A stretch of 56,739 nucleotides of DNA, counting the filler, from Ginglymostoma cirratum (taxonomy: Eukaryota): the NCBI GenBank assembly GCA_024137785.1. It is 3 parts of 3 records of this genome, joined end to end, with 100 filler letters (N's around TTAATTAATTAA, not from the genome) between each part and the next. Parts side by side here need not be neighbours in the genome. Positions count along the whole stretch, not along the records: positions 22,018 to 48,902 come from JAHRHZ010000046.1; 2 more parts are not named here. The stretch is one strand, 5' to 3'. Below the pieces are notes generated by a model. It had not been told where the DNA came from, ran no database searches, and saw only the letters and a program-made list of their open reading frames with translations. How positions within the stretch are numbered: position 1 is the first letter of the stretch; the number at the start of each line of letters is the position of its first letter. A program made the translations under genes and the position numbers. This document shows, piece by piece, positions 6,069-53,174 of this stretch.

Positions 6069-6424
6069 ATGATCTGTGCATGGTTGCATATTAGATTGCA
6101 ACATGGTGATGATCACTGCACAGACGTAGATGGCAGCATCTGATTTTCCAATGTTTCCGATGATCAAAGCACGATGTCGATGTTCCCAGTGAGGACTGAC
6201 ACAAACCTTCGCTGCTCCCACCACGCTGCCAGAAGCGGTGACCAGAAACCCTGGCTCTCCTCGGTCATATCACTTGTACCACAGCACGAAGCTGAGTAAG
6301 GTGTTCATTGTCAGTGACAAACGTCCACAACCACCAGAGGTGATTTGCTATTTAGCCTTGAGTTCTGTAAAGCGGAACGAGGCTCCATGGGAGACAGGGT
6401 GAAAGGAGATTTTGGTGCATGCAT
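6069..6424 (-). pseudogene. TCR-like V pseudogene (leader+V in one exon) with RSS
   Basis: MHAPKSPFTLSPMEPRSALQNSRLNSKSPLVVVD...LLSFVLWYK*YDRGEPGFLVTASGSVV...LIIGNIGKSDAAIYVCAVII. Heptamer CACCATG (6102-6108), 24-nt spacer, nonamer ACAGATCAT. Confidence 0.8.
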
Positions 6425-6903: not shown

Positions 6904-7409
6904 GGTTGTGGAACAGGTCGAGATATGATCTGTCTCATTGTGTTCCTCTGCACAATAATATGTTGCATTATCTGACATCCTCAACGTTCCAATATCCAAA
7001 GCAAAGACATTGTTTGAAAGATCTTTAGAGGCAGTAGCTCTTCCTGTAACCTCTGGATTACATCTGTTGCTGCTTTCGCTGCTGTATAAAACTAGCCATT
7101 GCAGGCTCTTTGCACGGGTTTCTCCGTATCAGTGGATGGTGTAGCTGCCGAGCTCGAACCCGCTGTTTTTACAGGTCAGCCTCAGAGCGGGTCCGGCGAT
7201 TCCTGTCTCTGCCTCTGGCTGAGTCAACACCACCGCCGACTGGGTACCTAGTACCGGAAAGCAGCATTAATTAAACCAGATTGACTCTTCCCAGGGAAGG
7301 TGTTTCACAAAAAACTGAAAACTTCTTCGAATTTTGGGAAATGGAGCAAATTGAGCTACACACTGGATGCGAAAAAATGTAGCAGAGGGAGAGACCTCTA
7401 TGATACCAT
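6904..7409 (-). pseudogene. IgM-VH-like V pseudogene (leader exon 7364-7409, V exon 6943-7247, 23-RSS)
   Basis: V exon reads [53 protein letters not shown]...TASKDLSNNVFALDIGTLRMSDNATYYCAEE, with the conserved Trp codon as TGA. The leader carries a TAG. RSS is CACAATG-23-TCCACAACC. Confidence 0.92.
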
Positions 7410-12930: not shown

Positions 12931-13415
12931 GGTTTTTGTACAGGTATCTGATCTGCTTCTCTGTGCCCATGTACAGTAATATGTCGCGTTGTCTCACATC
13001 TTCAATGTTCTGATATCCAGAGAAGTTATTTTTTGATCGGTCTTTGGAAGTACTCACTCGTCCTTTAATCTCTGGAATATAATCGTTGCTGTTTTCTCTG
13101 TAGTACCAAACTAACAATTGCAGGTCATTCCCAGGGCGCGGTCTTTTCGAGAACATGGTGTTGCTGTCGAGATCGAACCTATTGGTTTTACAGGTCATTG
13201 TCAAAGACTTTCAGGGTATCCCTCTATCTGCCTCTGGCTGAGTCAATGTCATCTTCGACTGGGCAACTAGTAAAGTAAAGCATCATTCATTAAACCAGTC
13301 TGACTCGGGCTTCTGTCATACACAAAAAAGTTTGGCAGATTATTGGATTCTGAAAATCTGACGCAAATGCTTACGGATGGGCAGGAGGGAGGGTTGTTTT
13401 GAGAAAACAAGTCAT
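12931..13415 (-). pseudogene. IgM-VH-like V pseudogene (leader remnant 13375-13415, V exon 12966-13266)
   Basis: AQSKMTLTQPEADRGIP*KSLTMTCKTNRFDLDSNTM...RVSTSKDRSKNNF, frameshifted before ATYYC. RSS is CACAGAG, 19-nt spacer, canonical ACAAAAACC. Confidence 0.9.
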
Positions 13416-20290: not shown

Positions 20291-20660
20291 GTGTGATCCC
20301 CTATCTCCGATCATCATTCCTCCCATGGGGGATTAAGTCCATATTACATAATTGCAGGCCAAAGTATGAAGCACACAGTCGCCTGTGGCACTAATAACTG
20401 TGGAAGTCTCCTACGTGCCAAAGATCTACAGTACACATGACATTGCTCACCTTTGCGAAATGGTTCAGGTGGCACGGCGGAGGGGAGCCAAATCTTCTGA
20501 TCACCACCTCTATCTGCGTAAAGGATTCGGGACGCTCTTCACCAGAACAGAAATGGACCACATTCATCATCAGAGACATCAGGAGGAAGGATACTGTGAT
20601 TTACCACTGCCTGGTGATCATCACCACGTAACAACTCAAAGGGCAACCAGTATAGATGCT
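20291..20660 (+). pseudogene. TCR-like V pseudogene (leader+V in one exon) with 23-RSS
   Basis: ...KSILHNCRPKYE / TQSPVALITVEVSY... / TLLTFAKWFRWHGGGEPNLLITTS...FIIRDIRRKDTVIYHCLVII (frameshifts at the slashes). CACCACG (20622-20628), 23 nt, ATAGATGCT. Confidence 0.8.
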
Positions 20661-24911: not shown

Positions 24912-26296
24912 AATTTTTCTCTTGCACTTGTCAGAACAATTCACAAGAATACCAATCCCAGAGGAAAACCAATTGCATGAGGAGAGTGCTGATTGGTTGG
25001 CAAGTAGACTCTGATTAGTCGAGGCATTACCAAGGAGAACACACGTTTTTGTAGGAAATACTCAAATAAAAATATACACAGAGCGCATAAACAGTATGAA
25101 AACACACACTAGGTACAGAAGATGCATATATATGCAATACTCAAATGCAGATAGAGCAATGCAAATAGCACATAGTGTATACAGAAAAGACAAGACGTTT
25201 ACATACATCATTTCACCAAGCATAAAGGCATGAATACATCAATGTATAAATATGACACACAGCTGCCCAACTTCAATATGGACCAAGTGAAATAAACTGA
25301 AAGAATGATGGTGAAGAAATTTTTCAAATATTTTTATTTGTTCATGCGATTTGGGTGTTGCTAGCTAGGTCAGCAGTTATTGCCCATCCCTAATTGTCCA
25401 AGGTGGTGTCGAGCAGCCTTATTGAACTGCTGCAGTCCTTGTGGTGTACGTACACATATAAAGCTGAGTTCCAGGATTTTGACTTTGTGTCAGTGAAGGA
25501 ACAGTGATAGAGTTCCAAGCCAGGATAGTGGAGGGAAACTCGGGTTTGGTGACCCCATGCATTTCCTGCCCTTGTCATTCTAGGTGGCAGAAATCACAAG
25601 TTTGGAAGGTGCTATTGGAAAGGTCTTGGTGCGCTGCTGCGGCGCATCTTGTGCAAAGACAACTTCTTTTTATTTTTCATTATTTTTGATTGTGTACCAA
25701 AAAAGGGAAAGGATTGTTTTAGACCAAGTATTATAGTCTCTGGGCTATAAGGGGCAATTGCTTCCCATATGCTTGTTTTAGACTTTGCAGCAGTTTGAAA
25801 CAGCTGAATAGCTTGCTAGGGTATTTCAGAAAGCATTTATGAATCACGAGTAGGACAAAATAGATAAAAATGATTGATTTCCTTCCCTAATAAGCCACAA
25901 TTATTTTTACAACAATTGGCAATGGTTTCATGGTTGCCACTGGAATAGTTTTTTTAATATCAGATTTATTAAAACTAAATTCAAATTTCATTTGTCGTGG
26001 TGGATTCCAAACCCGTGTCCCTAAAGCAATAGCCTAGACCTCTAGGTAGCTAGTGCAGTGACACTACCACTATGCCACCACCTCCTTAAGACTTTTTCTG
26101 CACTTTTTAACAGTTAAAAATATGCATGTTTCAAAAAACATTTGGTACTCTAAAAAGCAAATCTTCTCTGTTTCATCTCAATGATGTATGTCAGTAGCAA
26201 AACCTTTGCCTTATTTATTTCAAATTCCAGTTGAAATTAGTTTCAACTAGTTTAAACAAGATAAACAATGATCCATGTCAATATTTCCTGCGTGTC

Positions 26297-26422
26297 CTAT
26301 TCACCAGAATTTAAGTAAAGCACTGAACTGTAGACAATCTTCTCTTCCTTTTTCCTTTCTTTCTGCTGCAAGTTTTCCAATTGCAGCTCTGCATAATATA
26401 TATTATTCCCGCTGTTCTCATC
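26297..26422 (-). CDS. VJ-C1 receptor exon 6: cytoplasmic with two ITIM-type motifs
   Basis: DENSGNNIYYAELQLENLQQKERKKEEKIVYSSVLYLNSGE*. Confidence 0.82.
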   Translation of the reverse strand, partial: DENSGNNIYYAELQLENLQQKERKKEEKIVYSSVLYLNSGE

Positions 26423-29400
26423 CTGAAAAATGGGAAAGACATACAAACGCATTTATATTTTCTGTTCTCAATTTCTTGGATGCCCATCCCTTACACTAAC
26501 TGCAGGCTTTGAAAACCTGGGCTTGTTATTCTTTTTATCTCACTTTATCTCTTACTTTTTCTACATTGCTATACTTGTCACTATTGGGGTTTTACCTTCA
26601 CCTGAATTTCTCAGTAAATAAAAAAGTTTGTAGTGAGAGAGTTCTCCAACTGAGCCAAGTAGACAGAGGTGCAACTTCAATTTGTTCATTTTTAAAAATA
26701 TTTTGACGCATTAACAACCACTTCAGTGAGCAAATGGCTTATGTCATGGCAACTGTGACATTCAAAATTAGTACCGTCAAACCAATTGGAGTTGGGTCTT
26801 ATATAACTTCAGCTCCCATTCCCCAGTAATTGCAAAGATCTATAACTAGAAATGTTTGAATTCTTCTTATCTACATTATTCTTACATGTCTTTATTGTAT
26901 CCTTTCAGTGTCAGCTCCTGTTGGCAAACCCCTGGCGTCAGTTCCTTCTGGTCATCTGCTGAAAACTATTCCTATGTTTTCCTGGCTAGGCTCCGATCCT
27001 CCGCCCTCCATAAACTTTAATTTGTCAAAAACTTGGCTATCTACCATTGGCTTAGGGCAGCACGGTGGTTCAGTGGTTAGTACTGCTGCCTCAAAGTGCT
27101 AGGGACCCGGGCTCAACTCCAACCTTGGGTGGCTATCTGTGTGGAGTTTGCACATTCTCCCCGTGTCTGCATAGGTTTCCTCTAGGTATTCCAGTTTCCT
27201 CCCACAGTTGAAAGATGTGCAAATTAGGTGGATTGGCAATGCTAAATTGCCCATAGTGCCCAGGGATAGAGTCATAGAAACGTACAGCATGGAAACAGGC
27301 CCTTTGGTCCAACTCATACATGCCAACCAGAAATCCTAAATTAATCAAGTCCCACTGGCCCATATCCCTGTGAACCCTTCCTATTCATATACTCATCCAG
27401 ATGCCTTTTAAATGTTGTAATTGTACCAGCCTCCACCACTTCCTCTGGCAGCACATTCTGTACACCCACCACCCTCTATGTGTAAAAATTGTCCCTTAGG
27501 TCCCTGTTCAATCTTTCCCCTCTCACCCTAAACCTATGCCCTCTAGTTTTGGGTACCCCCACCCCAGGGAAAAGACCTTGTCTATTTACCCTAACCATGC
27601 CCTTCATGATTTTATAAACCTCTATAAGGTCACCCCTCAGCCTTCGAAGCTCCAGGGAAATTAGCCCCAGCCTATTCAGCCTCTCCCTGTAGCTCAAACC
27701 CTCCAACCCTGGCAACATCCTTGTAAATCTTTTCTGAACCCTTTCAAGTTTCATAAAATCCTTCCTGTAGCAGGGAGACCAGAATTGCATGCAATACTCC
27801 AACAGTGGCCCAACCAATGTCCTATACTGCCACAACATGACCTTCCAACTCCTATACTCAATGCACTGATCAAGAGAGGCAAGCATACCAAATGTCTTCT
27901 TCACTATCTTGTCCACCTATGACTCCACTTTCAAGGGAATATGAATCTGTACAAAGATCTCTTTGTTTACTAATACTCCCCAGTATCTTACCATTAAGTA
28001 CATAAGTCCTGCCCTGATTTGCCTTTCCAAAATGCCACACCTCACATTAATCTAAATTAAACTCTATTTGCCACTCCTCGGGCCATTGGTCCATCTGATC
28101 AAGATCCCAAATATTCTAAAGTAACCTTCTTTGCTGTCCACTATACCTCCAACTTACCAACCATACCTCCTATATTCACATACATTGTGCAGGCTAGGTG
28201 GGTTAGCCATGGGAAATGCAGGGTTCAGAGATAGGGTAGGGTGTGGGTCTAGGTGGGACACTCTTCATAGGGTTGGTATAGACTAAATGGGCCAAATGGC
28301 CTGTTTCCACACTGTAGAGAGTCTATGATTCTATGCCTTCTCTTGCCAAGTCTGTCTGCTTTATCTGGCCTGGTAGATATGAACAACACTTTGTCAAATA
28401 TGTTTAATTGGTGATTGCTGAAAAATCCTGAATAGGTCCTGGCTTTGAACTAGTAACAGAAGTGAGATCCCTAAATTATGTGGCCACATTGTAAAAAGTA
28501 AGTTTACATTTACGATGCTATCTTGTCTACAATGCAATCTTCGATTACTTGCACAATTTCCATTTTGTTCTTGAGTTCTTTTTCTTCCTGTATAAAATAA
28601 AAATTATGACAAAGAAGAATATAATTAAATATTTTTAGATGCATTGATGTTTAATGATATATTTATTAACTTATTTTAATTGCACATTTTTCTTAATTTG
28701 ATTTCTTCACGTGTAACAAAACAGAAGTGAGAACCATAACCAATATTAAGGCAGAAATGGCTCAGGACACTTTCTCTTTCAAGCATATCCTAAAATGTGA
28801 CGGGCAAAAACCAAAGGGAAAACCGTAAATAAAGCATTTACAAATGTGCATGAAGAAAATCATATATTTGCTTAATATAATTAATTAAAGCTGGGTACAA
28901 ATTGTGAGAGCAAAAGTTAATGTTAGCAAAAAGGAACCGAAAACAAATATTTGTGATTTATTAATCTCATTCATAACAGAATGATTTAAACACAAATGAG
29001 AAGTGTCTTTTGAATTATCAGTTGAGGACCATTGGTAGTCCAATCAACCAATTAACTTTGAAACACTGAACATTTAATTGTGACATCTGAAAATCTGATT
29101 TGAACTAAACACCATTACTGAGTTGTAATAATGAAGCATTTCATTCAGAAAGTGGAGGGGCAAACTCAAGTGTTATTGTAGAGGGAGCATGTGGTGTCCA
29201 CCAAGGCTCTTGATGCCTTTAGGAAAAGATGGGTACCACACAGGATAAAGAGCTTTACTTCCCCCTCCAACTCCATTTTGATTTAGAGATAGTAGGAACT
29301 GCAGATGCTGGAGAATCTGAGATAACAAGGTGTAGAGCTGGATGAATACAGCAGGCCAAGCAGCATCAGAGGAGATGGACCCATCTCTGAAGAAGGGTCT

Positions 29401-32400
29401 AGGCCCGAAACGTCAGCCTTCCTGCTCCTCTGTTGCTGCTTGGCCTGCTGTGTTCATCCAGCTCTACACCTTGTTATCTCCATTTTGATTTAGTCCCCTT
29501 CTCTCCCTAACACCACCCCCTTCACGTTTTAATGTCAGCATTGCCTTCAACAGGCTTTGCTTGTTAATATTCAACTGGCCACATGGGTGTTTTCCTGGTG
29601 GAAAAAATAGATAATAAAGTATGTATACACAATGGTGTCTTCTTACTATGTCACTGGGAAAAAGAACTATACACAGCCACAGATAAATTAGGGTAAAATA
29701 TAAACATTAGTGCTAGGCACTATTGGGTGCAGTGGTAGTGTGGGTTTTTTTTTAAAAAACAAGAAAGAAATAATTGAGAAAGGAAAAGAAGGTGGATGGG
29801 TAGGTCTTGCAGTGCAGGGGTAGTGTCACTGGGACCCAGGTTCAAGTCCTACTTGCTCCAGAGGTGTGTAATAACATCTCTGAACAGGTTGATTAGTAAA
29901 CTAAATTAATTTTTAAAAAATTGAGGGTGGGGTCAGTCTTGTGGCACAAAGGTAGCGTCCCTCCGTCTTGGGCAGAAGGTACAGATTTAATTCCTATCTG
30001 CCCCAAAGGTGCATCTTAATGTTGAAACAGTTCAGTTAAAATGTTTAAAGAAAACACAGTTAATGCCCCTCTAGGTCAGCAGATTGTTATTATCAATGAA
30101 TGGAAAACTGAAATTAACAAAAAAGTGACTTAGTAAAAAAGTTGACTTTTGGGTCCTGTTTCACTGGTTTACTTACTGACCAGCCAGAAAGTCCCTCATT
30201 ACACAAGCAACTGGATCATTGAAACAGGTAGATTGTACAACTGCACTGCGTCCTGAACCTCCCTCACAATCTGAGCTGCCTCTTAAGTACATTTTGCATG
30301 CCTTTCCACTTTGTGAAGATGCATGTTTTTGATAACTGTTAGTATTATTTAAATATTGTTACAATGGTCATGATAACCAAGCTTAAAGGATTTTTTAAAA
30401 AAAACAAAATAGTGTGCTGCTTATGAACACATTGTAATTTGGTTTTGTTGCCTCCAGGCCCAAAGTAGAATCACAGCTGAGAGCTTAATGCTCATGACAA
30501 GATATTATAAAATTATATCATTTTAAACCTTGATGCATTGGTGCTTAGCACAACTGGCACAGACTCTCTTTATATCATGGGAAATTAACATGATATATAT
30601 GTATTCCTTTCACATCAAGTATAAATCATAACTAGAATTGAAGTCAGTGTTTTCTTTTTAACTATTTAGAGTTAAACATTGAGAGGAATGTCAGATGATG
30701 ACAATGGCTGTCGTTGTACGTTAGCTATTATTGATCAAAAAGAAAGTAACTCATTAGCAGTTTTTTTTTGACTGGGGATGTTAATTTTATCTCCTGATCG
30801 TTCTCTGATAAATATTTAAAATGGAATATAACATAAAGATCTTTAAAAAGTATACTAGGTAGCTACATTTCTAAATAAGTGACTAATGAATGAACTTTGC
30901 ACCCAAGCAATGAGACCTCATTTATGAGTGTATTTAGAGACAGCGCTTGGCTTCAGAAAGGTGGAATCTAAACCAGATTCAAATATAAGCTTAATTTATG
31001 AAGACAGTTTATAGAAAATCTGTTCTTTCAGAAGAAAGGCAATTGAGGAACAGGCACAATCCAGGACTTTGAACAAGTAAAAGGAATGCATAAGGTAATT
31101 GTAGACAGATATTTTGTACGAAAAAGAGAGGTACACCTAGCCAGGGAAATGTAAAACTTCAAGCATTTTATTGATAATTAAGATAATATTTTATATCACC
31201 AGTTAAATGATTGAATTAACATAAGACTAATGGGATGTTGGTCGATAGCTGGTTCTAGAGGAAGGAGGTGTAAGAATTGTGGTTGCATTATCAGAGTTTG
31301 ATAACAGATTACATTCCTCATGGAATAAACTATATTGTTTGCTGGACAGCTGCTTACCATGTATGTATTTTATGAGAAAAAGCACAAGAAGAATACTACA
31401 GGCTATTCCACCACAAACGGAAAGTAAAATGAATGACAGCATCCAAAGATGTCCATTATGATCTGCAAAATATGGATTGTAGACTCACAATGTGCATGAA
31501 TTATGCAGACAACCTGCTAAAACTCAAATTGAATACATTTAGATCAAAAAAAGAACTGTAGATGCTGTAAGTCTGAAACAAACAAGACACAAACTGCTGG
31601 GGAAACTCAGCAGGTCTAGCAGCTTCCATGGAGAGAAAACAGAGTTAACATTTTGAGTCCAGAGACCCTTCTTCAGAAATGAGTCTGTCTGAAAACAGGA
31701 GGGGGTTGGTTGGATCAGTTGACTGGACAGCTGATTTGGGATGCAGAGTAACACCAGCAGCATTGGTTCCATTCCTGGTCCAGTCAGGATTTTAATGAAG
31801 GACTCTCCTCCTCAACCTCTCACCTTGCTTGAGGTATGGTGACCCTCAGGGTAAACCACCATCAATTATCTCCCTCTCTCTTATGAGAGAACAGCCCTAT
31901 GATCTAGTAGCATTATGGCAACTTTACCTTTACCTTATAGGTGTATATATGATGAAGAAAGGCAGAGGCTTTTCAGCCCCAACACTGATTCCTTTGGCAC
32001 TGCACTAGTTACAAGTTCCCCTCTTAAAACCATTCCTTTATTCTGTCTTCCAATAGTTAGCCAATTCTCTATCCTTGGCAATATTCTAGCCCCAACACTA
32101 TGCATCATCTAATTCACCCACCGCAAATGAAGCAGTATTTCCACTACATATTGGAAGAAAAATGTTGCAGATACATATTCTGAAGAGTTTGATAATGTTA
32201 CATCTTACCTTCACCTCTTGGGTGTACATGAATGAGGATGGTACGGTTTATATTGAATTGTGAAGCAGGATGCTGAATCATACAAGTGAATTCACTTGAG
32301 TTATTGCAGTTTTCAGTGGAGATGTTAACAATGGCCATGTGATTGTACGTTCCATCAGGGTTAGATGTCTGGATTTCGTTGGTGTGCTGGTTGATGAGAC

Positions 32401-35400
32401 AGGTTGTTTGGAACATCATTGTAATAGTGTTTGGATAAAAATTGTGTGCTGAACAGTTGATTGTAGCTGAAGGTGAAGATGTTTCTTTAGAAGATGCAAA
32501 TAGCCAAAGAGACGGGGGAGCTAGTTATGAAAAGGAGGGCGGAGGATTGGTTAATAATAGAATCTGATTAATGTCAGCTCAATGCGCAACTGAACCATCC
32601 AGACTTCAAAGCTATTAAACAATCCGATATGATCTTGAACAGATATCTAAACACAAAGAAAGAACGTTTTTAGTAATAAAATCACTTTTTAAATATTCCA
32701 TTTTCACTCAATCTCAATTTTAACTTTCACCAACCTGGTAATTGCACTTTAACTTTTTACATGAAATCTTTTCCTTCTTCCTGATTTTACCTTCCTCTGG
32801 GTCCATCAACTTCATTCTCACCATCGCACCCCTATCCCATTTACTTTGCTGTTTTAGATCTGTTAGACCTGCCATTATCTGTTAATATTTTCAGACGTTT
32901 TTCAGCCTGAATCCCATTCTAGCATCGGATGCGATTTGTTCAACCGCTCTCATTTCCATCACGCTCTCTTGCCTCTGCCCCATGTACTCTATGTTGCCCC
33001 TACACTCACTGCCGGCGCCTTGCTGTTTTATTTTCTCCCACTTCTTATCAGTATTTTAAAGTACGTTCCTTCATCCTATTACCAGAATTGAATAAGCAAG
33101 GGATGCACCACTCACGAGCACACTAAAACTATCACCACCACCAAACGAATCATGTCAGCTTGCACTGGATTCCCAACAAGTTTGACGTAAGTGGATTCTT
33201 ACCGGTCGTGTACGCACGGTTTCGGGACCAGGGGAGAAATTGAAGATTCTCACGAAAGGGCGGGGAGAAATTGAAGATTCTCACGAAAGGGCGGCTCCCC
33301 AATTCGCGTCGGGTTAATCCTGCAAGAAGCGGAGTCAAATGGATGACTCGCCCGGCATCGACTGGTACGTCAGTAAATGCCTATTTGAAGTCAAGTTGCT
33401 GATGCTACCGGGGTCGTTCAGGGGCGCTTCTCCTACTCCCCTTTTTACTATTAGAGTGGCATTTGTTTGAACTTGGAAGAATACTTGGTTAATACTCATC
33501 TTAATTCAGCAAAGAATTACTACACGTTAAGAACGTGACAGGCACAATGTGCACAGTACCCTGCAGATATTTTCTTTTCGTGGATAATTATGAAATCTAA
33601 CGAATCATCTTGATAAAATAGACCACTTAGGAATGCTTGACCTGCTATGTTCATCCAGCCCCATGCTTGTTATCTCGGATTCTCCAGCATCTGCAGTACC
33701 TTTTATCTCTGATACACTTAGGAAAATTGTTGCTGTTTTCCCCTTTTAATGTTCTGCAGAAAGAAATTAGCTTATTTCAAGGATATACCAAACTGACTGA
33801 AAAAATCAAACAAAAGTCTGCAGGTGCAGAGTTACACTTGAAACGTTAACTTGTCACTTCTTCGACAGATGTGGTCCCTGATCTGCTTCGTCTTTCCAGT
33901 GTTTTCTCAAAAGTTGGCAGGCTTCACTAATAAATCAAGGAAATGGCCTTTAATTATTGTAAATACAATGGGTACGGTGTGCTCAGAGGAATTACGAGCA
34001 AAGAATCAAAAACTCGTCAAAAGGAAGTGTTTTAAAATATATTAGTTATTTCTTTTAAAGAGAGGATTGAGGTGAAACCTAAGACAGAATCGTCAACTCA
34101 TATATAATTATCAAATAAAAATAGCAGGGGCATTTCATAAATATTTCATGTTTGTCTTTACCAAACTGAGACCAAAGTGAATGTTACTCAGATGTGCAGT
34201 TGAGGTGAATTAGCCATTCTACATTCCTCGTGGTGTCCGGGGATGTGTAGGTTAGGTGGAGTAGCCAAGGGAAATGCAGAGTTACAGGGATGGAGTGGAC
34301 CTGGATGGGATGCTGTTCGAAGGGTCGGTGTGGACTTGATTAGCCGAATAGCCTGCTTCCACACTGTAGGGACTTTATGATTCTATGACGGCTTATTAGA
34401 GTAACCAAATTTATTTCACTAGTCCGAGTTGAGGAATAGAGAACTTCTAAGCCTTTAAGAAGAGATCTTTGCTCCAATTACTCCAATGTCTTGTGCATGG
34501 AAGGAAAATTATGTATTTTGATTAGTAATAGGATAATTTGTTAGTACTATCTCAGAATTTTTCTCATTACTTTATTTGCATTAATTCTGTTAAAGTTAAC
34601 TCATTGGGAAAAGTGTGATCTCTTTTAGGGTGGAATAAGTGGAAATTTAATCTATATGTTATGATTTGTGGCTGATACCTGTCCGTATCACAGCATTGTG
34701 ATTCCAAAATTTGGTCAATAATTGCCTCCCCTCCCCGTTCGGTGACAAACTAGTACATTAATGCGACGAAAATGTACAATCGTTTTCTCGTTTCCATCGT
34801 TGATGTGACTGTTGCGTTGCTGTTTATTTTTGTTAGTTTCTTTCTTGACTCCTTTTCCTATTGTTATTTTCCCTCCATCGTTTCTGAAAATACTTGACCG
34901 TTTGCTGAAGTACAGCACCTGAGGTTCCCTCCAGCATCGCTCCTGTGAATATTCTTTATGCTCGACCTTGGAAACTGAAAGTCACAGGTTTGTTCTGCCA
35001 CGGAGACCACGATCCTTCTGCCTTCTATCAGTGTTATTAATGTAGATTTCTATCTGGAATTCTTACAATGCATTAAGGGTGAGAACCTTCCAAACCCTGG
35101 AATCAAATGTAGCAATTCTACCATCATGCTGGCTAAAATTAGCTAACTCCATAGACTGGCGATCAAACTTGAAGCGTCTCATCTTTATGACATATTCATT
35201 GCTGCTAAAGTTTTCACCAATATCCCAAGGCATGTTAAGGATAAAATTATAGCATCGTTACCTGTTACACTCAGCATTGTTCCTTTGCCAATTCTTTTAC
35301 CGCTTGGTGGAGGCGCGACCTGAAACATCTCACAGTAGTATTGTCCAGTGTCATTGACTTGAACCTCAGTAATTGTTAAAGTGAATGCTTTCTCAACTAA

Positions 35401-36706
35401 GTCATGCTTTGCATAATATCGATAATGAGTCACTTGGGGTACACTGGTCGATAGGTTCGCAATGATCTTTGGAGGTGCTTGGTCAATATTACGGAAAACC
35501 CACCATGCTTCGAATCTTCGTAGATCAGGTACTGAGTGGAAACAATTTAAAGAGATCAGGCCTCCCTTTTCGACCAAAAGATGACCAGGCTGTTGTAAAT
35601 CTCGCTGTCCATCTTGACAAAAGTTAAATTTGTGCATTGTTAGCAATGGATGTGAATATATGAAACGCCTGAGCTAAAGTCATAGGAAAGGTTAACTCAA
35701 TTAATTCCTTCGTTCAAATAGAAGAAAAAACGTTTTTTTTTCTGTATTCACAGTAATGTGCCGTATGTTTCTTATACAAAATATTTCATATATTTTCACC
35801 TTGTTCGGCTATAATTTTGAAGATGCTCCGACAGGTGTTCAACCAAAAATGGAGAAATTTAGTACATTGTGTTAAGAGGTCATTAAAGTACAGAGATGGT
35901 CACAAATTTCCCGATTGCGTATTAATGTAAGAACATCACTGGTAATGAAAGTGTAAGCGGCGTGCGTCAATAAGCAGATCTGCTTACAAAATAAACTATA
36001 GTTAGCAACATAATATAGAATGAAAGGTATTATTGTCTGTAACTATCTTGCTAACTGAGCATATTATGCCATTTTAGTTACACAAAACAATACTGTATGA
36101 AAAGTGAATTGAGGAACATCGACGTCTGGTTTACGAACGGCACATGGACAAGTGATTTAAGCGTTAGTGGATCAAATGTTTTGTTTTGCGTTAATCGCCA
36201 AATTTTTGACGGGTACAACGCTAATTTTGGAAAGTTTAAATACGTTTTCCACAGATTTTAGTTACTGTTATTAGCACAAAGGCAGTTTGGTATGCTGCGC
36301 AATTAAATCAAACATTGGCAATTAAAACCGCGTGGTAGTTCATTTAAATATCAGTAAAAACAGAAGTCAGATATATGTAAATATATTAAATGCTGCTGAT
36401 GTAGGCGATTTTGAAATGCTATTTTAGATTGAAAAACAGTGATAACTAAAACCTCAGCTGAGAAATAAATCATATCTAACTTATATCCATGTCATGTACA
36501 TTAGCCTAACTAAATTATAGACAATTGACTCAGATCATTACTGGCAATATTACCATTCGCTGTAAATGTCACACTTTTATAGTCATCTACAATCCTAACT
36601 TCAAATTTAACGCCTATCCAATTTCAACTAGCACTTCAGTTGAATAAGTACCTGTAAATGGTAATAGCAGTTGTAGGAAAATGTAGAAAATTATCATGTC
36701 GCACAT
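26297..36706 (-). CDS. Non-rearranging VJ-C1-TM-ITIM immunoglobulin-superfamily receptor (6 coding exons, 340 aa; PRARP/VJC1-like architecture)
   Basis: Exons 36652-36706, 35262-35612, 32209-32520, 31358-31462, 28514-28587 and 26297-26422. All introns are GT-AG with compatible phases (1,1,1,1,0), totalling 1023 nt open to TAG. An AATAAA lies about 80 nt past the stop. Confidence 0.88.
27055..28335 (+). mobile_element. HE1-type V-SINE (27055-27265 and 28185-28335) interrupted by a CR1 fragment
   Basis: tRNA-like head GGCAGCACGGTGGTTCAGTGG, V-SINE core TGTGTGGAGTTTGCACATTCTCCCCGTGTCTGC, and a tail ending CTATGATTCTATG. Confidence 0.82.
27270..28160 (-). mobile_element. CR1 LINE 3' fragment
   Basis: ORF 27476-27916 encodes the CR1 ORF2 C-terminus (LEYCMQFWSP...RRLRGDLIEVYKI). 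Confidence 0.9.
28514..28587 (-). CDS. VJ-C1 receptor exon 5: cytoplasmic 1
   Basis: GRKRTQEQNGNCASNRRLHCRQDSI, with a strong polypyrimidine acceptor and a gtaaat donor. It bridges phase 1 to phase 0. Confidence 0.72.
29271..29493. mobile_element. Palindromic Penelope-derived insertion with hammerhead core (29387-29414, +) and 16-bp flanking direct repeat
   Basis: CTCCATTTTGATTTAG at 29271-29286 and 29478-29493. Core is CTGAAGAAGGGTCTAGGCCCGAAACGTC. Confidence 0.83.
31358..31462 (-). CDS. VJ-C1 receptor exon 4: transmembrane
   Basis: DHNGHLWMLSFILLSVCGGIACSILLVLFLIKYIH, bounded by ttttgcag and gtaagc. Confidence 0.88.
32209..32520 (-). CDS. VJ-C1 receptor exon 3: C1-set domain
   Basis: APPSLWL...TINCSAHNFYPNTITM...NPDGTYNH...FTCMIQHPAS... 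Confidence 0.92.
33231..33292. repeat. Perfect 31-bp tandem duplication in a CpG-rich intronic patch
   Basis: GGGGAGAAATTGAAGATTCTCACGAAAGGGC occurs twice. Confidence 0.95.
34220..34390 (+). mobile_element. HE1-type SINE 3' fragment
   Basis: Matches 28185-28335. Confidence 0.7.
35262..35612 (-). CDS. VJ-C1 receptor exon 2: V-set domain with germline J motif
   Basis: ...ISLNC...AWW...FTLTITEVQVNDTGQYYCEMFQVAPPPSGKRIGKGTMLSVT. No RSS is present. Confidence 0.93.
36652..36706 (-). CDS. VJ-C1 receptor exon 1: signal peptide
   Basis: MCDMIIFYIFLQLLLPFT+G then gtactt. Confidence 0.8.
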
Positions 36707-37629: not shown

Positions 37630-39760
37630 GTTTGTGTGAAAAACATGCCTCACACATCTCTTTTAAGCTTCCTCCCTCGCACCTTGAACCTGTGTCCCCT
37701 ATTAATTGACTCTTCCTTCCTGGGAAAAAGCCTCATACTTTCCACTCTATCCACGCCATTCACAATCTTAGAAACTTCTATCAGCTCGTCCCTCAACCTC
37801 TTGTGTTCTAGTGAAAACAAACTCAGTCTATCTAACCTTTCTTCATAGCTAAAATCCCTCATTCCATGCAACATTCTGTCAACCTTTTCTGTACTCTCTC
37901 CAAAGCATACATATCCTTCTGGTAGTGTGGCGACTATAACTCTACACAATATCCCAAGTGTGGCGTAACTAAAGTTCTAAAAAACTGCAGCATAACTTGT
38001 CCATCCTTATACTCATTGCCCCTTCCAATGAAGGCAACATGCCATAGACCATTTTTACCACCTTATCACCTGCAGTGATCTGTGGACCTGCACACCCAGA
38101 TCCCTCTATATATCAATACTCCTTAGGGTTCAGCCATTCACTGTATAATTTTCACCTGTACCTGACCTTCCAAAATGCATCACCTCACATTTGTCTGGAT
38201 TAAACTCATGTGCTTTTTTTCTGCCCATGCCTCCAACTAACCTATATCCTGCTGTATCCTCCTCACTGTCCACAACTCCGCCAATCTTTATATTGTCTGC
38301 AAACTTACTAATTTGACCAGCTGTGTTTTCCTCCAAATCATTTATGTAGATCATGAACAACAGAGGTCCCAGCACCAATCCCTGTGGAACATCATTAGTC
38401 ACAGCCATCCATTCCAAAAAGGATCATTCCACCGCTACCCTCTATCTCCTATGACTAAGTCAGTTCTTTATCCATCTTGCCAGCTCACCTCGATACCACG
38501 TGACTCCACCATTTGTACCCATTTGCCATGAGGGACCTTGTCAACGGCTTTAATGAAGCCCATGTATACAACATTAACTGCTTTTCCCGCATCAATCGTC
38601 TTCGTCATCTCCTCAAAAAACTGAATCAAGACAGTGAGGCACGGCCTCCCCTGCATGAAACCATGCTGTTTATCGCTAATCCGTCTATTAGCTTCTAAAT
38701 GCATAGAGATCTTGTCCCTGAGAATCTTTTCCAATAATTTCCCGACCTCTGAGGTGAGGCTCACAGGCCTGTAATTTCCTGGATTATCCCTGCTACCCTT
38801 CTTAAACAATGGGACAACATTAGCTATTCTCCAGTTCTCTGGGATCTCACCTGGGGCCAAAGAGGATATAAAGATGTCTGTCAATGCTCCAGCAATTTGT
38901 TCACTTGCCTCCCTCAATATTCTGGGATAGATCCCATTAAGACCCAGGGACTTATCTATCTTAATACTTTTTAAGATGCACAACATCTTTCCCTTTTTAA
39001 TAGCAACTTGGCTTAGAAATTCGACACTCCCTTCCCTGAGATCATCTTCCACCATTTCCTTCTTTTTGGTGAATACTGATATAAAGTATTCATTTAAGAT
39101 CTCACCTACATTTTCTGGCTCCCCACATACATTTTCTCCTTTGTCCTTGAGTGGGTCAACCCTTTCCCTGGCTACCCTCTTACTTTTTATATTTGTATAA
39201 AAAGCCTTGGGATTCTCCTTAGCGTCTTTAGCTAATGAATTTTCATGACCCCTTTTAGCCCTTCTAATTCCTTGTTTAAGTTCTTTCCTATTTCCCTTAT
39301 ATACTTCAAGGGCTTTGTCAGTTCCCATCTTCCTAGACCTTATGTATGCTTCCTTTTTCTTTTTAACCAAGGTCATAACATCCCTGGTCATCCAAGGTTC
39401 ACGTAACCTGCCATACCCATCCTTCACTCTCACAGGAACATGTTGCTTCTGAACTCTTATCAACTGCCGTTTGACATACTCTCACATAAACAATGTGGAT
39501 TTACCCTCAAACAGACACCTCCAACCAACACTCTCCAGTTCCTGCCTAATATCGTTGTAGTCTGCCTTCCCCCAATTTAACACCTTCACCCGAGGACTGC
39601 ATTTATCCCTATCCATGAGTAACTTAAAATTCACTGTATTATGGTCACTCCCCCTGAAATGCTCCCCCACTGAAACTTCACTCACCTGGCTGGGCTCTTT
39701 TCCCAAAACTAGGTCTAGTATAATCCCTTCCCTGATTGGACTGATTACACACTGTGTCAA
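37630..39760 (-). mobile_element. CR1 LINE ORF2 (EN-RT) fragment, disrupted
   Basis: ORFs 39482-39760, 38468-39463, 38130-38417 and 37650-37949 contain SDH, PGNYRPVSLTS, VPQGLVLGP and FADN motifs. Confidence 0.93.
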
Positions 39761-39989
39761 GAAAATACTGTGTCAATTTTAGACTTTGTAATCAAATTTA
39801 AATTCTACCAGCTGCTGTAGTGGGATTTAAACCCACATCGTCACATCAGTGGGTCTTCGTTTCCACCAATATTTTGTCAATATCCTCTTCCTCAATAGGT
39901 AAGAAAACCCTGCCTTTGGGATTTTAGTGACTCCTTTTTCATTAGTGACTCTATGACTCTAGAAACACTAAACAAGGTACTCATTATGA

Positions 39990-41610
39990 ATGTGCAGCCC
40001 TCTGCTCTCTCCACTCCAACCCCAACCTCACCATAAAACCCGCAGACAAAGGAGGTGCAGTTGTATGGTGCACTGACCTCTACATCGCCGAGGCAGGGCA
40101 CCAACTCTCTGACACCTCCTCCTACCACCTCCTTGATCATGACCCCACCCCCGACCACCAAAACATCAGCTCCCAAAATCATCCACAACCTCATCACCTC
40201 AGGTGACCTCCCATCCAGAGCCTCCAACCTCATTGTTCTCCAACCCCGCACATCCCATTTCTATCTCCTTCCCAAAATCCACAAACCTGACTGCCCTGGT
40301 TGACCCATTGTCTCCACCTGCTCCTGCCCCACTGAACTCATCTCCACGTATCTCGACTCCATCGTCTCCCTCTTGGTCCAGGAACTCCCCACCAATGTCC
40401 GTGACACCACCCACGCCCTCCACCTCCTCCAAAACTTCCAATTCCCTGGTCCCCGCCACCTCATCTTTACCATGGACGTCCAGTCCCTACACACTTGCAT
40501 TCCCCATGCAGATGGCCTAAAGGCCCTTCGCTTCTTCCTGTCCTACAGGCCCGACCAGTCCCCCTCCACTGACACTTTCATCCGCTTAGCTGAACTCGTC
40601 CTCACCCTTAACAACTTCTCCTTCAATTCCTCCCACTTCCTACAGTCAAAGGGGATTGCCATGTGTACCCGCATGGACCCAAGCTATGCCTGCCTCTTTG
40701 TAGGATATGTGGAACAATCCCTCTTCCGAGCTACACTGGCCCTATCCCCCACCTCTTCCTCAGTTACATCGATGACTGTATCGGCGCCACCTCGTGCTCG
40801 CACGAGGAGCTTGAACACTTCATCCACTTCACTAACACGTTCCACCCCAACCTTAAGTTCACCTGGACCATCTCTGATACCTCTCTCTCCTTCCTGGACC
40901 TCTCTATTTCCATCTCTGGCAACCACCTGGAAACCGATATCCATTTCAAGCCTACCGACTCCCACAGCTACCTAGAGTATACCTCCTGTCACCCATCTTC
41001 CTGCAAAAAAGCCATCCCCTATTCCCAGTTCCTTCACCTCTGCTGCATCTGCTCCCAAGATGAGGCATTCCACTCCTGAACATCCCAGATGTCCTCGTTT
41101 TTCAAGGACCGCATCTTCCCCTCCACAGTGGTTGAAAACGCCCTTGACCGTGTCTCTCGCATTTCCCGCAACTCATCCCTCACACCCCCTCCCCGCAATA
41201 ACAACCAAAACAGAATCCCCTTCATCCTCATGTACCACCCCACCAACTTCCGGATCCAATGCATCATCCTCCGACACATCCACCATCTGCAATCCAACCC
41301 CACCACCAAAGACATTTTTCCCTCCCCACCCTTATCTGCTTTCCGGAGAGACCACTGTCTCCATGACTGCCTTGTTCGCTCCAAACTCCCCACCAGCCCC
41401 ACCACCCCCGGCACTTTTACATGCAACCAATGGAAGTGCTACACCTGCCCCTACACCTCCCCCCTCACCCCCATCCCAGGCCCTAAGAAGACCTTCCACA
41501 TCAAACAGATGTTCACCTGCACATGTGCTTATGAGGTATACTGTATCCGCTGTTCCCGTTGTGGCCTCCTCTACATCGGGGAAACCAAATGGAGGCTTGG
41601 GGACTTTAAA
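39990..41610 (+). mobile_element. Penelope-like element RT + GIY-YIG endonuclease, frameshifted
   Basis: FYLLPKIHKP, MDVQSL, YIDD, FLDL and YCIRCSRCGLLYIGET motifs. Confidence 0.92.
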
Positions 41611-43619
41611 GCATGCACTCATGCACTTTAAAGCATGATCCATGGGCACCAGCTGCATGCATCCCTCATCCACAGACATTGGCATCCAACATTTGCCAAA
41701 CCCTCATGACCATAATGGCATAATGTCTCTGATTCCCAGGCTCTCTAGGATGCACAGACTTTCATTGCAGGGTGAACCAGCAACAAGCATTGAAGGGCTG
41801 CTGCAAGGACACTTTGTGTGCAGGGACATGGACCCAGTTCACTGATTGGACTAAGCTGCATCTCAGGATTGATCACTTGATCTGTTAAGGCTCACTCACA
41901 AAGAGCATACCCACATGTTCACTCCTTGCCTTACCGTGCCATTTTGCACAGACAAACATCCAAGCTTGCCTTGCTCGTCAGCAAGGGGCATACATCTTGT
42001 TATATGGCACCCTGCTTTGCCAATCTCTCACCTGCACAACATGCCAGCAGCTTGTATTGTAAACACACTGTATGTGCAGCAAGCAGGCACCATGTCTCAA
42101 ATTTCTACGGGAAACCTCCTCACCAAAGGCCATGGAGGCCCCTGTCAATCAGGGATCCCACAAAAGCATCAAGGGCAGCCTTTGATACTAATCCATCAGG
42201 GTGGTCTTGGTGAGGGGGGTCTGTGCCTCTGCGTCTGTGGAGCGCGTCATTGTCAGTCCTGTGGCTCCTTGGTGACCACTCTGGGGGAAGGGGAATGATA
42301 GGTCTAACATAGTCAGGAGACGTCTAGGTATCGGTTAAAGGTTAATGCACTTCTCAAGTTGGACTGTCCACTTACGTCACACAAGACCGTGGTCAGTCTG
42401 TTAGGTCTGCCCACAGAAACTAAGGAGAAAGGGAGGTAATGCGGGTGGCAACAGGGGGCAGACTGCCACCACAGGAAGGAGACTCAAGAATCTATTCTTT
42501 GGGATTGGGGCTACAGACCAGAGAGAAGGTGTGGTGATAACTGTGGAAAGGCTTAATAGTATCTGTAAGTGGCAAAACAGTGAAGTATGGATGAAAAAGG
42601 GGTCATGCAGGAGGGAGGGAGGTTTGTCTATGGTGAGGAGCCTCCTGGCTTCAAGGGGGGAGCAATGTATGACCACATTTGGCATGGTGATCCCATATGC
42701 CAGAAGCTGGGTAAGGTGAATAGCTGCAGGCGAATGTATGGGGACCTAAGGAGATGCAAAGCCTATGGGGTTTACAGAAAAGCTGCCAGGAAGTGGATGT
42801 TTGTGATTTCACTGACACATAGAATTGGTGCCTGGAAGCTCCTGAGCTGGTTAAAAATAATCAGCGACCTATTCTAATCCATTTTCCAACACTGGACCCA
42901 TAGTCCTACATGCCCTGGCATCACAAGTATCCATTTAAATTCTTTTTAAATGTTATCAGGGTTGCTGCCTTTACCACCCTTGCAGGGAGTGTCACCATGC
43001 CTTTGATAGGATGATGAAGTGCTTGTTTGTGCACCACTAATGCCGACCCTATCCTTGGAGAGAGCCAGAAAATTGCATGAGTTGCTGCACTGCTGTAGTT
43101 CCTGGGCATTCTATATACCTGTCTGCTTCTGCTATCCTTCCCTTTAATTCTAACCAAATACCTGATTGCTGATACCACTGCATCATTTCCTGTCTGGCAC
43201 AGCTCAGGTGCCTGGTGTCCAGCAGTTCTCCAAGTGCCAGAAGCCTGGGATGGTTTTTTTCCCTTGGCCAGCTGTGGAACTATCACAGTGAGGTAAACAC
43301 CAGCATGTGTTCCAAATTCAGATGAGTCAGTATCCAAGCTGGGAGGGTGGGGTGTGCGTACAGGAAGCAGTCTTTCTGATGCTTCCTCTAGTGTCATGGT
43401 CTAGACTGTATTCCTTTAAAGTGCCATCATTCAAAATATCTCCAAGAAGAGAATGAGTGGCACACACACTGAAGACTCCACCTCTCCTGGGTGATCATGC
43501 ATCTACTGTCCTGAAATCACTGCCTATGGGGTGAAGAAATACTAGATATTATAATAAGAAAATTCTCATTCTCCAGATACTCCAAAATGATGCCAGATGA
43601 CCCTGAGGTTCAGGTTCTT

Positions 43620-45490
43620 AAAAAATAAATTGGGAGGGCAAAAAGGGGACACGAAAGCATAATAGCAGGTAAAATAAAGGAGGGTTCTAAGTTATTTTAA
43701 AGGGCATTAAGAGTAAAAGGATAACTAGGGAAAGAGTCGGGCCCATTAAGGACCACATGGTAATCTGTGTTTTGAGACACAGGATTTAGGTAGGGTTCTG
43801 AATTAATATTTTTGTGTTGCTGTCCACTATTGTGTGTGACAATGCAGGTATAAAAATCAGGAAGAAGGGCTGTGATATAATTATTAGACATAGAGGAGGT
43901 TCTGAGTGGTCTGGCAGACTTAAAGGTAGGTATACCTCCAGGTATGACAAGCTGTTGAGGGAGGCAACAGAGGAAATAACAGGGGCACTGGCATCAATTT
44001 TCAATTTGTCTCTGGCCACAGGAGATGTGCTAGAGGACTGGAGGACAGACAATATTGGTACCATTATTCAAGAAGGAAGAGATAAATCAGGAAACTGCAG
44101 GCCATTCAGTTTAACCTCAGTGGTGGGGAAACTATTGGAAGCAATTCTGAAAGACAGAATTAATTTACACTTGGAGGCAGAGATTAATCAAAAACAATCA
44201 ACATGGTTTTATTAGGGGAAGGGTATGCCTGAACAACTTGACTGAATTTTTCAAAGATGTGACCAGGTGTGTAGATGAGGGCAATATATTTGATGTAATT
44301 TACTTGGACTCCATCAAGACTTCTGATAAGACACCACATGGGAGACTGTTAGCAAAGTTAAGAGCCCATGGGATCCAAGGAAATTTGGCTATTTGAATCC
44401 AGAATTGGCTGAGTGGCAGAAAGCACAGGGAGATGGTTGGGAAATGTTTTTGTGACTGGAAGTCTGTGTTCAGTAGGGTTCCACAGGGATCAGTGCTGGG
44501 GCCTTAGCTGTTAGTGGAATATATAAATGACTTAGACTTGAATGCAAGAGGGTTGATCAGTAAGTTCATGGATGAAACAAAAATTGGTGGGGTGGTAAAT
44601 ATTGAGAATAGCTTTAGATTGCAAGAGGATATGGACAGGTTAGACAGAAAGGCTGATCAATGGCAAATGGAATACAATCCAGATAAGTGGAAGTTCACGT
44701 ACTTAAGCAAGTTAAACAAGGGAGAACATGGTGAGTGGTAGGACCCTGGAAGGCACCAAAGATCAGAGGGATCTTGGTGTGCATGTCCACTGGCACCTTT
44801 AAAGTAGCAGGACAGGTAGATAATGTGGTTAAGAAGGCTTATGGAATACTTGTTATTATTAGTTGAGGCATTGAGTTTAAGAGCAGGGAGGTGATGCTGA
44901 ACTGTTGGTTATATTGAACAATGAAATGTTGGTTAGCTCATAGGTGGAATATTTTGCGTAGTTCTGGAATCACATTATAGAAGGGATGTAACTGCACAGG
45001 TGACGATACAGAGGAGATTTACTAGGATGGTGCCTGGGCTGGAGAGTTTTAGTTATAAAGAGAGATTGTAGAGACTGAGGTGTTTTCCTTGGAGCAGAGG
45101 AGACTCATGGGGTCATGATTGTGATACATAAAATTATGAGGGGCATAGGTAGGATAGACAGGAAGGAACCATTCCCCTTGGTGGAGGGATCAATGACCTG
45201 GGGCACAGATTTAAGATAAGGGGCAGGAAGTTTAGAAGGGATATGAGGAAAAATATTTTCACCCAGAGTGTGGTGGAAATCTAGAACTCACTGCCTATGA
45301 AGGTGGTAAAGGCAGAAATCCTCAAAACATTTAAGAAGTATTTGGATGTGTGCTATGATACCAAGGCATTCAAGGCTATAGGCCCAGTGCAGGAAAATGG
45401 GATTAGAATAGTTAAGTGGTAGTCTTTAACCAGCTCAGACTCAATGGGCTGAAGGGCCGTTTTCTGTGCTGTAGACCTCTATGACACTAT
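43620..45490 (+). mobile_element. CR1 LINE RT and 3' end, degenerate
   Basis: GNCRPFSLTSVVGKLLE and YINDLD...ISKFMDETKIGG motifs, plus a CR1 3' tail. Confidence 0.88.
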
Positions 45491-52660: not shown

Positions 52661-52823
52661 TCAGATACTCAACAGGCCAAATAACCCCTGTGGAGGGAAA
52701 CAGGGTGAATATTTTAGTTCAATGATTTTCACTAGAAAATTAAATCATTAAAGGTTCAGAGAATTAGTTACACCCTCACTATGCACTGTCTACAGACTGA
52801 AGAATGTATAAGCAGCTTCTTAC

Positions 52824-53174
52824 CAGGTATGACCTGCAGCCGTGTCTCTTTCTGGATCAGATACTGAGAATTAGGTTCAGAAGTGTATTCCACCTGACAC
52901 AGGTAAGTGTGATTGTCCCTCACACTCAGCTGGTTTATCCTGGTCGAGGCATTTCCCTCCTCTGGGTTCCCGATGAGCTCATATTGATTTCCACCGTTTA
53001 CAGTTGTCCAATTTCCCTGTGATTGGGCTGTAAAAGTAACAATTTGTTGGTAGGGCTCCTTCCTCATCCAGGCAACAGTGGTCAGGTGGTAATTGCGCTT
53101 GGTCTTGAAGATACAGGGTAAAGTGACTGAATCTCCCTCTGTCCCACTCACCACTGAAACTTCTCCCTGAGCAG
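52824..53174 (-). CDS. Intact Ig V-set exon, Siglec-15/PILR-like (partial gene)
   Basis: cag / gtaag boundaries, phase 1-1, 351 nt. Reads SVTLPCIF...VAWMRK...YELIGNPEEGNASTRINQLSVRDNHTYLCQVE...TRLQVIP. Confidence 0.8.

What the first reader, a model, noticed from the sequence alone, without database searches (positions are those of the whole stretch)
26297..26422. Tandem ITIM-type motifs and an uncharged TM point to an inhibitory receptor
Seen: the last exon encodes IYYAEL and IVYSSV, with the motif tyrosines 21 residues apart, and the TM has no Lys, Arg or Asp. Known: (I/V/L/S)xYxx(L/V) tandems recruit SHP-1/SHP-2, whereas TCR chains signal through charged TM residues and CD3. Inference: a TCR-chain-shaped ectodomain is wired directly to inhibitory signalling.
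Basis: partly seen in the sequence, partly recalled or inferred. Interest (0 to 1): 0.7.

Follow-up and report, generated by a model that had tools for sequence, protein, structure and literature searches.

The report
Shark antibody-shaped inhibitory receptor family
This exon is the spliced, conserved signalling tail of a shark cell-surface receptor that is shaped like a T-cell-receptor chain but never rearranges; it likely acts as an immune brake, and its relatives in fish, amphibians and turtles, some of them probably activating, appear to form a little-noticed receptor family.

Summary
Observation confirmed. Window 26422-26297 (-) is the last coding exon of a six-exon shark gene (leader, V, C1, TM, two tail exons; 342 aa, 96% identical to whale shark XP_020371795). 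It encodes IYYAEL and IVYSSV, tyrosines 21 apart; the TM is uncharged. Contigs of two runs from two studies join exon 5 to this exon in frame. Both tyrosine motifs are kept in 9 of 9 shark/ray orthologues with an in-frame tail and in gar. The gene is not a TCR chain, SIRP, UrIg or any single-V CD28 gene. It belongs to a clade (sharks, rays, gar, amphibians, turtles; coelacanth and chimaera by signature) with a CD28/CTLA-4-type PPP..GxG loop in V and a C1 domain carrying an invariant extra cysteine pair. Other members have a TM Arg/Lys and short tails, the paired-receptor pattern. Best reading: an inhibitory receptor recruiting SHP-1/2 (inferred, untested). Non-rearranging V-C receptors with ITIMs are a known kind (SIRP, lamprey NICIP, PRARP). 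I found no description of this family, but could not read the PRARP and VJC1 papers, so it may already be named.

The parts
36652..36706 (-). Exon 1: start codon and leader (18 codons + 1 nt)
   Evidence: ATG at 36706, GT donor; 94% to whale shark residues 1-18
35262..35612 (-). Exon 2: single-exon, non-rearranging VJ-type V domain with YxC-x6-PPP-x5-GxG loop
   Evidence: Pfam V-set E 2.4e-12; 97% to whale shark; model pLDDT 93.9; no RSS-like site near it
32209..32520 (-). Exon 3: C1-set domain lacking the C-strand Trp, with an extra cysteine pair (C176, C207)
   Evidence: Pfam C1-set E 4.7e-10; extra Cys pair in 16 of 16 family rows and 0 of 26 outgroup rows
31358..31462 (-). Exon 4: short stalk without Cys and uncharged transmembrane helix (31430-31368)
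   Evidence: Hydropathy 2.82, no K/R/D/E; helix 244-276 in the model; donor matches orthologue models
28508..28587 (-). Exon 5: first cytoplasmic exon (80 nt, phase 1 to 0)
   Evidence: 100% to whale shark 276-302; its 3' end is the loose end of X1 and X2 contigs
26297..26422 (-). Exon 6 coding part: 41 aa plus stop, with both tyrosine motifs
26384..26401 (-). Membrane-proximal ITIM IYYAEL (Y311)
   Evidence: Orthologues [IV][CY]Yxx L in 9 of 9 sharks/rays
26321..26338 (-). Membrane-distal ITIM IVYSSV (Y332); ITSM TVYSSV in bamboo shark
   Evidence: Orthologues [IVT]VYSxV in 9 of 9 sharks/rays
25900..26296 (-). 3' UTR (at least this far; contigs run on about 0.9-1.0 kb beyond the stretch laid)
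   Evidence: X1 and X2 contigs of 1548 and 1442 nt cover 25900-26422 without differences

Best explanation
This exon is the spliced, conserved signalling end of a germline-encoded, single-pass V-C1 receptor of sharks that likely works as an inhibitory (checkpoint-type) receptor: ligand binding at the V domain would lead Src-family kinases to phosphorylate Y311 and Y332, which would then hold the tandem SH2 domains of SHP-1/SHP-2 and damp nearby activating signals. Shown: gene structure, exon 5-6 joint, uncharged TM, motif conservation, and a clade apart from SIRP, IgL and TCR rows. Inferred: surface expression on leukocytes, phosphorylation, phosphatase binding, monomeric state (no stalk Cys), an extra C1 disulfide (C176-C207), and that relatives with a TM Arg/Lys and short tail are the activating partners of a paired-receptor family. 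The ligand is unknown; the CD28-type PPP loop makes a B7-family protein my first guess.
For: Six exons give one open 342-aa frame, 327 of 342 identical to whale shark. Exon 5-6 joint in X1 and X2. Both motifs fit (S/I/V/L)xYxx(I/V/L) or TxYxx(V/I), definitions as in PMC12151841, in 9 of 9 shark/ray orthologues with an in-frame tail (spacing 19-21) and in gar (spacing 20), while whole-protein identity falls to 49-51% in the two full-length rays and 27% in gar. Four amphibian long-tail members keep two tyrosines 22-23 apart, the distal one ITSM-like. Same spacing class as tested receptors: lamprey NICIP Y295/Y318 recruits SHP-1/2 (PMC5071834), PD-1 Y223/Y248; the SHP-1/2 binding sites are conserved across jawed vertebrates. 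Paired pattern: 7 of 21 family rows examined have a TM Arg/Lys with a 12-44 aa tail holding no or one ITIM; all 13 rows with both an intact TM and a long two-tyrosine tail have an uncharged TM; the remaining row is an isoform without a TM. V+C1 tree: family against all else 98.6/99 (SH-aLRT/UFBoot), SIRP 100/100 apart.
Against: No biochemical test. No reads on the exon in the one raw poly(A) run laid (X10); intron-5 contigs in X2 and X3. Orthologue annotations include isoforms without ITIMs (bamboo shark X3, X4), without TM (catshark X3, stingray X4), and the zebra shark model skips the TM and reads the last exon in another frame. In frogs and the caecilian the proximal motif has Pro at +3 and fails the consensus. 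The V-only tree does not recover the family as one clade (14% of bootstrap trees). Tissue of expression was not available.
Confidence: 0.72

Rival explanations
1. Same mechanism, but the gene is the shark orthologue of an already named non-rearranging VJ-C1 gene (PRARP of Fu et al. 2019, or one of the VJC1 genes of Ohta et al. 2019). This rival concerns novelty, not function, and overlaps with the best explanation.
For: PMC10751288 states that several VJ-C1-type genes are known in tetrapods and lists PRARP among joined-VJ genes. Recalled, not read: PRARP has V-C1, ITIM/ITSM and orthologues in bony fish, amphibians and reptiles, a range like ours.
Against: Recalled: PRARP has a canonical J-like segment and occurs in birds; ours reads IGKG, and none of the named hits was a bird. 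None of our accessions was found in the supplements of three comparative papers. Neither primary paper is held.
Confidence: 0.3
2. The tyrosines are mainly YxxPhi sorting signals or adaptor (SAP/EAT-2-type switch) sites; the receptor would inhibit by internalising ligand, CTLA-4-like, or signal both ways.
For: YAEL and YSSV both fit YxxPhi (own knowledge); the V loop is CTLA-4-like; the distal motif is an ITSM in bamboo shark and tungara frog.
Against: The hydrophobic -2 residue, irrelevant for AP-2 but part of the ITIM definition, is kept at both sites in sharks, rays and gar, and so is the 19-21 spacing that suits tandem SH2 domains.
Confidence: 0.13
3. The main products lack the ITIM tail (intron-retaining, frame-shifted or TM-less soluble forms) and act as decoys; the ITIM form is minor.
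For: Intron-5 contigs in X2 and X3; alternative isoform models in bamboo shark, catshark, stingray and zebra shark.
Against: X1 shows only the spliced form; the ITIM frame is conserved from sharks to gar.
Confidence: 0.08
4. It is simply a shark SIRP (CD47-binding) gene.
For: NCBI names several orthologues SIRP-alpha-like; top Atlas cluster is SIRP-alpha at 0.96; human SIRP-alpha is second in a profile search of PDB sequences.
Against: SIRP rows form their own clade, 99/97 in V and 100/100 in V+C1, without this family; the same orthologues are also auto-named kappa light chain-like.
Confidence: 0.05

Closest known systems
SIRP-alpha/beta paired receptors
   Same: Joined-VJ V plus C1, TM, tandem ITIM/ITSM; inhibitory and charged-TM members side by side (architecture and own knowledge).
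   Different: Separate clade; one C1; PPP loop; extra C1 Cys pair; activating-type members have Arg near the N-terminal part of the TM.
CD28 family, esp. CD28X, CD28HL3 and PD-1 (PMC11599192, abstract, sections 14-16 and passages read)
   Same: V loop fits the CD28X signature YxCx6PPPx4/5GxG exactly; tail resembles CD28HL3 ([I,V]xYxxL..VTYxxV) and PD-1 ITIM/ITSM; CTLA-4 ranks among the top Foldseek matches.
   Different: All nine described members have a single V; ours adds a C1. No EYEDM, no TM YxxxxT. CD28HL3 was not found in cartilaginous fish.
PRARP (Fu et al. 2019) and VJC1 genes (Ohta et al. 2019); neither paper read, features recalled
   Same: Non-rearranging VJ-C1, ITIM/ITSM tail, non-mammalian range.
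   Different: Recalled canonical J segment and avian members not seen here; orthology could not be tested.
UrIg and UrIg2 (PMC12227049, parts 1-4 of 8 and table S1 part 1 read)
   Same: Shark non-rearranging single-exon VJ plus C1, auto-annotated as light chain; UrIg2 is the top PDB sequence hit of the family profile.
   Different: UrIg has 3 and UrIg2 9 C domains, disulfide-linked dimers, no ITIM mentioned; ours has one C1, no stalk Cys and a two-ITIM tail.
Lamprey NICIP (PMC5071834, abstract and passages read) and lamprey TCR-like (recalled)
   Same: V plus C, TM, two ITIMs about 20 residues apart; NICIP recruits SHP-1/2.
   Different: C2-set rather than C1-set; jawless vertebrates; no homology shown here.
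T-cell receptor chains
   Same: V-C1-TM order, one exon per domain; predicted V fold closest to TCR alpha/delta V (Z 16-17, rmsd about 2).
   Different: No rearrangement signals, no charged TM residue, no stalk Cys, long tyrosine-bearing tail.

Membership tests
ITIM inhibitory receptors (functional class) | Cytoplasmic (S/I/V/L)xYxx(I/V/L) motifs, in frame with a TM | tested here: met
   exon 4-5 joint by orthologue models only
ITIM inhibitory receptors (functional class) | No charged TM residue | tested here: met
ITIM inhibitory receptors (functional class) | Phospho-dependent SHP-1/SHP-2/SHIP binding and inhibition | not testable with these tools
   Needs bench work
TCR chain | Split V and J with recombination signals | tested here: not met
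   V and J-like strand in one exon; 3 RSS-like sites in the window, none within the gene
TCR chain | Charged TM residue, connecting-peptide Cys, short tail (own knowledge) | tested here: not met
   No Cys between 215 and 256, uncharged TM, 72-aa tail
TCR chain | V-set plus C1-set fold | tested here: met
SIRP | V-C1 ectodomain with tandem ITIM tail | tested here: met
SIRP | V and C1 group with SIRP sequences | tested here: not met
   most SIRP rows were labelled by me from motifs, three by source name
SIRP | CD47 binding, synteny | not testable with these tools
   No genome held
CD28 family | YxCx6PPPx4/5GxG in the V FG loop | tested here: met
   Motif text; sequence
CD28 family | Single extracellular V domain | tested here: not met
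   C1 exon present and kept in orthologues; definition
CD28 family | V domain groups with CD28/CTLA4/CD28H/PD-1 in a tree | not tested
   No named CD28-family sequence was returned by any search; structure search ties CTLA-4 with TCR V
CD28 family | Binds B7-family ligands; known synteny blocks | not testable with these tools
   No ligand data, no genome held
PRARP / VJC1 genes | Non-rearranging VJ-C1 with ITIM/ITSM (recalled) | tested here: met
   definition recalled, papers not held
PRARP / VJC1 genes | Canonical FGxG J segment (recalled for PRARP) | tested here: inconclusive
   Ours reads IGKG, but the published definition could not be read
PRARP / VJC1 genes | Sequence orthology and MHC-paralogon linkage | not testable with these tools
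UrIg / UrIg2 | Three or more C1 domains, disulfide-linked homodimer | tested here: not met
   One C1 in the window and orthologues; definition

The most novel reading that the evidence does not exclude
An undescribed, jawed-vertebrate-wide family of paired V-C1 receptors that is a two-domain branch of the CD28/CTLA-4/PD-1 family: a checkpoint-type V loop on an antigen-receptor-like V-C1 chain, binding a B7-family ligand, kept from sharks to turtles and apparently lost in mammals. With its sister family (PPP-loop V plus canonical C1, one tyrosine) it would link costimulatory receptors to the pre-RAG antigen-receptor precursor.
Probability: 0.2. Interest if true: 0.78.

Novelty: new variant of a known kind. 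Interest (0 to 1): 0.5.

Why it matters
Non-rearranging VJ-C1 genes are sought as relics of the gene that the RAG transposon split (PMC12227049, PMC10751288). This one adds a membrane-bound, signalling-competent example with a CD28-type loop, and defines by clear sequence signatures a family that databases mislabel as kappa light chain or SIRP. If it is a checkpoint receptor with activating partners, it extends the inhibitory repertoire of sharks, basal fish and amphibians and makes a CD28/antigen-receptor link testable by ligand screens and synteny. If it is PRARP/VJC1, the gain is the shark orthologue, its transcript support and the paired-receptor pattern.

Tried and rejected
No whole genome is held, so synteny could not be tested. 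No listed run is on record as RNA holder ('no RNA holder listed'); X1-X3 are guesses. Only the last exon and its flanks were laid with reads, so joints between exons 1-5 are not read directly. An exon-like stretch at about 29594-29526 and the alternative exon-5 donors were considered; orthologue models do not use the first, and reads pick donor 28508. Fold searches of the two-domain model gave only generic Fab/TCR/B7 matches; CD28 itself and NKp30 were not listed in the top rows, which excludes nothing. Pfam gave no family beyond generic Ig sets. Literature: nine completed searches found no paper describing this gene; accession or name searches in supplements of PMC10751288, PMC11599192, PMC12227049 and PMC12619710 found none of ours; figures in those supplements cannot be searched. 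Fu 2019, Ohta 2019, Flajnik 2012/2023/2024, Ott 2021 and Dornburg 2022 are not held, so 'not in print' is not established. Earlier-finding look-ups by sequence and place were empty. The C1-only tree was the quick version. The V+C1 tree left out 10 of the 52 rows: long-branch, B7-like and unclassified rows and four others. No complex prediction was run, as no binding partner is claimed.

Full report
Observation. On the minus strand, 26422-26300 encodes 41 residues behind an AG acceptor and ends in TAG at 26299-26297. IYYAEL (26401-26384) and IVYSSV (26338-26321) are there, with tyrosines 21 apart. By themselves they mean little: the window's six frames hold 203 such hexamers and 4 stop-free tandem pairs, and 1.8% of shuffles of the exon give two.

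The gene. Upstream lie a leader exon (36706-36652), a V exon (35612-35262; Pfam V-set 2.4e-12), a C1 exon (32520-32209; C1-set 4.7e-10), a TM exon (31462-31358) and a tail exon (28587-28508), all with GT-AG ends and matching phases. Together they give one 342-aa frame, 327 of 342 identical to whale shark XP_020371795 and 80% to bamboo shark, so the window is most likely from a carpet shark (inference). The TM 21-mer has no charged residue, there is no cysteine between the C1 F strand and the TM, and there are six N-glycosylation sequons. V and the J-like strand share one exon; none of 3 RSS-like sites in the window lies in the gene.

Transcription. Contigs of runs X1 and X2 (two studies; RNA by the tool's guess) cover the exon and 3' UTR without differences, break off at 26422 and continue with the end of exon 5, fixing donor 28508 and the ITIM frame; X1 has no intron depth. 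Against this, X2 also holds an intron-5 contig (22.9 against 39.1), X3 only an intron-side contig, and the raw poly(A) run X10 (24% read, tissue unknown) has no read on the exon. The exon 4-5 joint was not read from RNA; whale shark, bamboo shark and catshark models use the same donor. Annotated isoforms without ITIMs or without TM exist in bamboo shark, catshark and a stingray, and the zebra shark model skips the TM and reads the last exon in another frame.

Conservation. Searches (names from 16, 42, 53, 55, 63) found relatives in sharks, rays, elephant shark (partial model), gar, coelacanth (partial), salamanders, a caecilian, frogs and turtles; no named hit was a mammal, bird or teleost, but these searches are limited and most representatives are unnamed. 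Both motifs match ITIM or ITSM in 9 of 9 shark/ray orthologues with an in-frame tail (spacing 19-21) and in gar; four amphibian members keep two tyrosines 22-23 apart, with the proximal motif degenerate in three. Of 21 family rows examined, 13 have an uncharged TM and a long two-tyrosine tail, 7 have a TM Arg or Lys and a 12-44 aa tail with no or one ITIM (axolotl, newt, coelacanth, three turtles, one unnamed), and one is a TM-less isoform. Axolotl has both types, with near-consecutive accessions on a contig of the same length. This is the pattern of paired inhibitory/activating receptors (own knowledge) and independently favours the inhibitory reading.

Family signatures. The V FG loop reads YxC-x6-PPP-x5-GxG, the signature given for CD28X and reminiscent of CTLA4 in PMC11599192. 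The C1 domain lacks the C-strand Trp and carries two extra cysteines in 16 of 16 family rows and 0 of 26 outgroup rows; they sit at the end of strand C and before strand F in the model, so a second disulfide is likely but unmeasured. A V+C1 tree separates the family from all else at 98.6/99, SIRP rows at 100/100, and a sister family (PPP-loop V, canonical C1, one tyrosine; elephant shark, stingray, sturgeon) at 98.9/99; the two together against SIRP/IgL/TCR get only 92/82. The V-only tree does not hold the family together. The predicted V domain (pLDDT 93.9) is closest to TCR alpha/delta V (Z 16-17, rmsd about 2), with CTLA-4 tied in Foldseek.

Mechanism. Most likely (0.72) a monomeric surface receptor whose two phosphotyrosines engage the tandem SH2 domains of SHP-1/SHP-2, as shown for lamprey NICIP (PMC5071834, abstract and passages) and PD-1, whose phosphatase-binding sites are conserved across jawed vertebrates (PMC12151841, passages). 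Expression site, phosphorylation, phosphatase binding and ligand are inferred or unknown. Rivals: sorting/switch motifs (0.13), decoy isoforms dominant (0.08), SIRP (0.05).

Comparison. It works like SIRP-alpha or PD-1, but is not a member of SIRP (trees), TCR (no RSS, charge or stalk Cys), UrIg/UrIg2 (PMC12227049, parts 1-4 and table S1 part 1) or the nine single-V CD28 genes (PMC11599192). PRARP and the VJC1 genes are the open risk (0.3): I know them only from recall and from mentions in PMC10751288 (passages and section 13) and PMC11599192; the primary papers are not held. Nine searches and four papers' text supplements did not show this gene (see Tried and rejected); supplementary figures could not be searched.

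Verdict. The design is known; the family, with its CD28-type loop, altered C1 and paired members, appears undescribed in what I could read. New variant of a known kind, interest 0.5.

Noticed in passing
window 6943-7263 (-), 12947-13282 (-), 156-about 500 (+): Three broken immunoglobulin VH-like segments (stops or frameshifts), 33-48% to shark heavy-chain V; no C exons for them in the window.
   Followed up: partly
window 5997-6269 (-) and 20398-20628 (+): Two further degenerate V-like segments resembling each other at the F-strand end; type not determined. An RSS-like site lies at 6170 (+), possibly chance.
   Followed up: no
window 52771-53229 (-): Open V-set exon whose best PDB sequence hit is Siglec-15 (E 9e-11); it has Gln where I recall the Siglec F-strand Arg; no downstream exons identified.
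   Followed up: partly
P0047, P0079, P0055, P0095, P0099, P0112 and others (not in the window): Sister family: V with [EQ]IPPP-type loop like CD28H, canonical C1, TM and one IYxx[LV]-like tyrosine; elephant shark, stingray, sturgeon and unnamed rows. No copy in the window.
   Followed up: partly
P0012 (axolotl XP_069483859): Model with a duplicated V-C1-V-C1 ectodomain and TM Arg, beside the ITIM-bearing member.
   Followed up: partly
window 26423-27027 (-): Intron-5 sequence present in X2 and X3 contigs: retained intron, pre-mRNA or DNA.
   Followed up: no
window 37650-41700, 43800-44400, 53900-56739: Long ORFs that look like LINE-type reverse transcriptase/endonuclease remnants (recognised by eye).
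   Followed up: no
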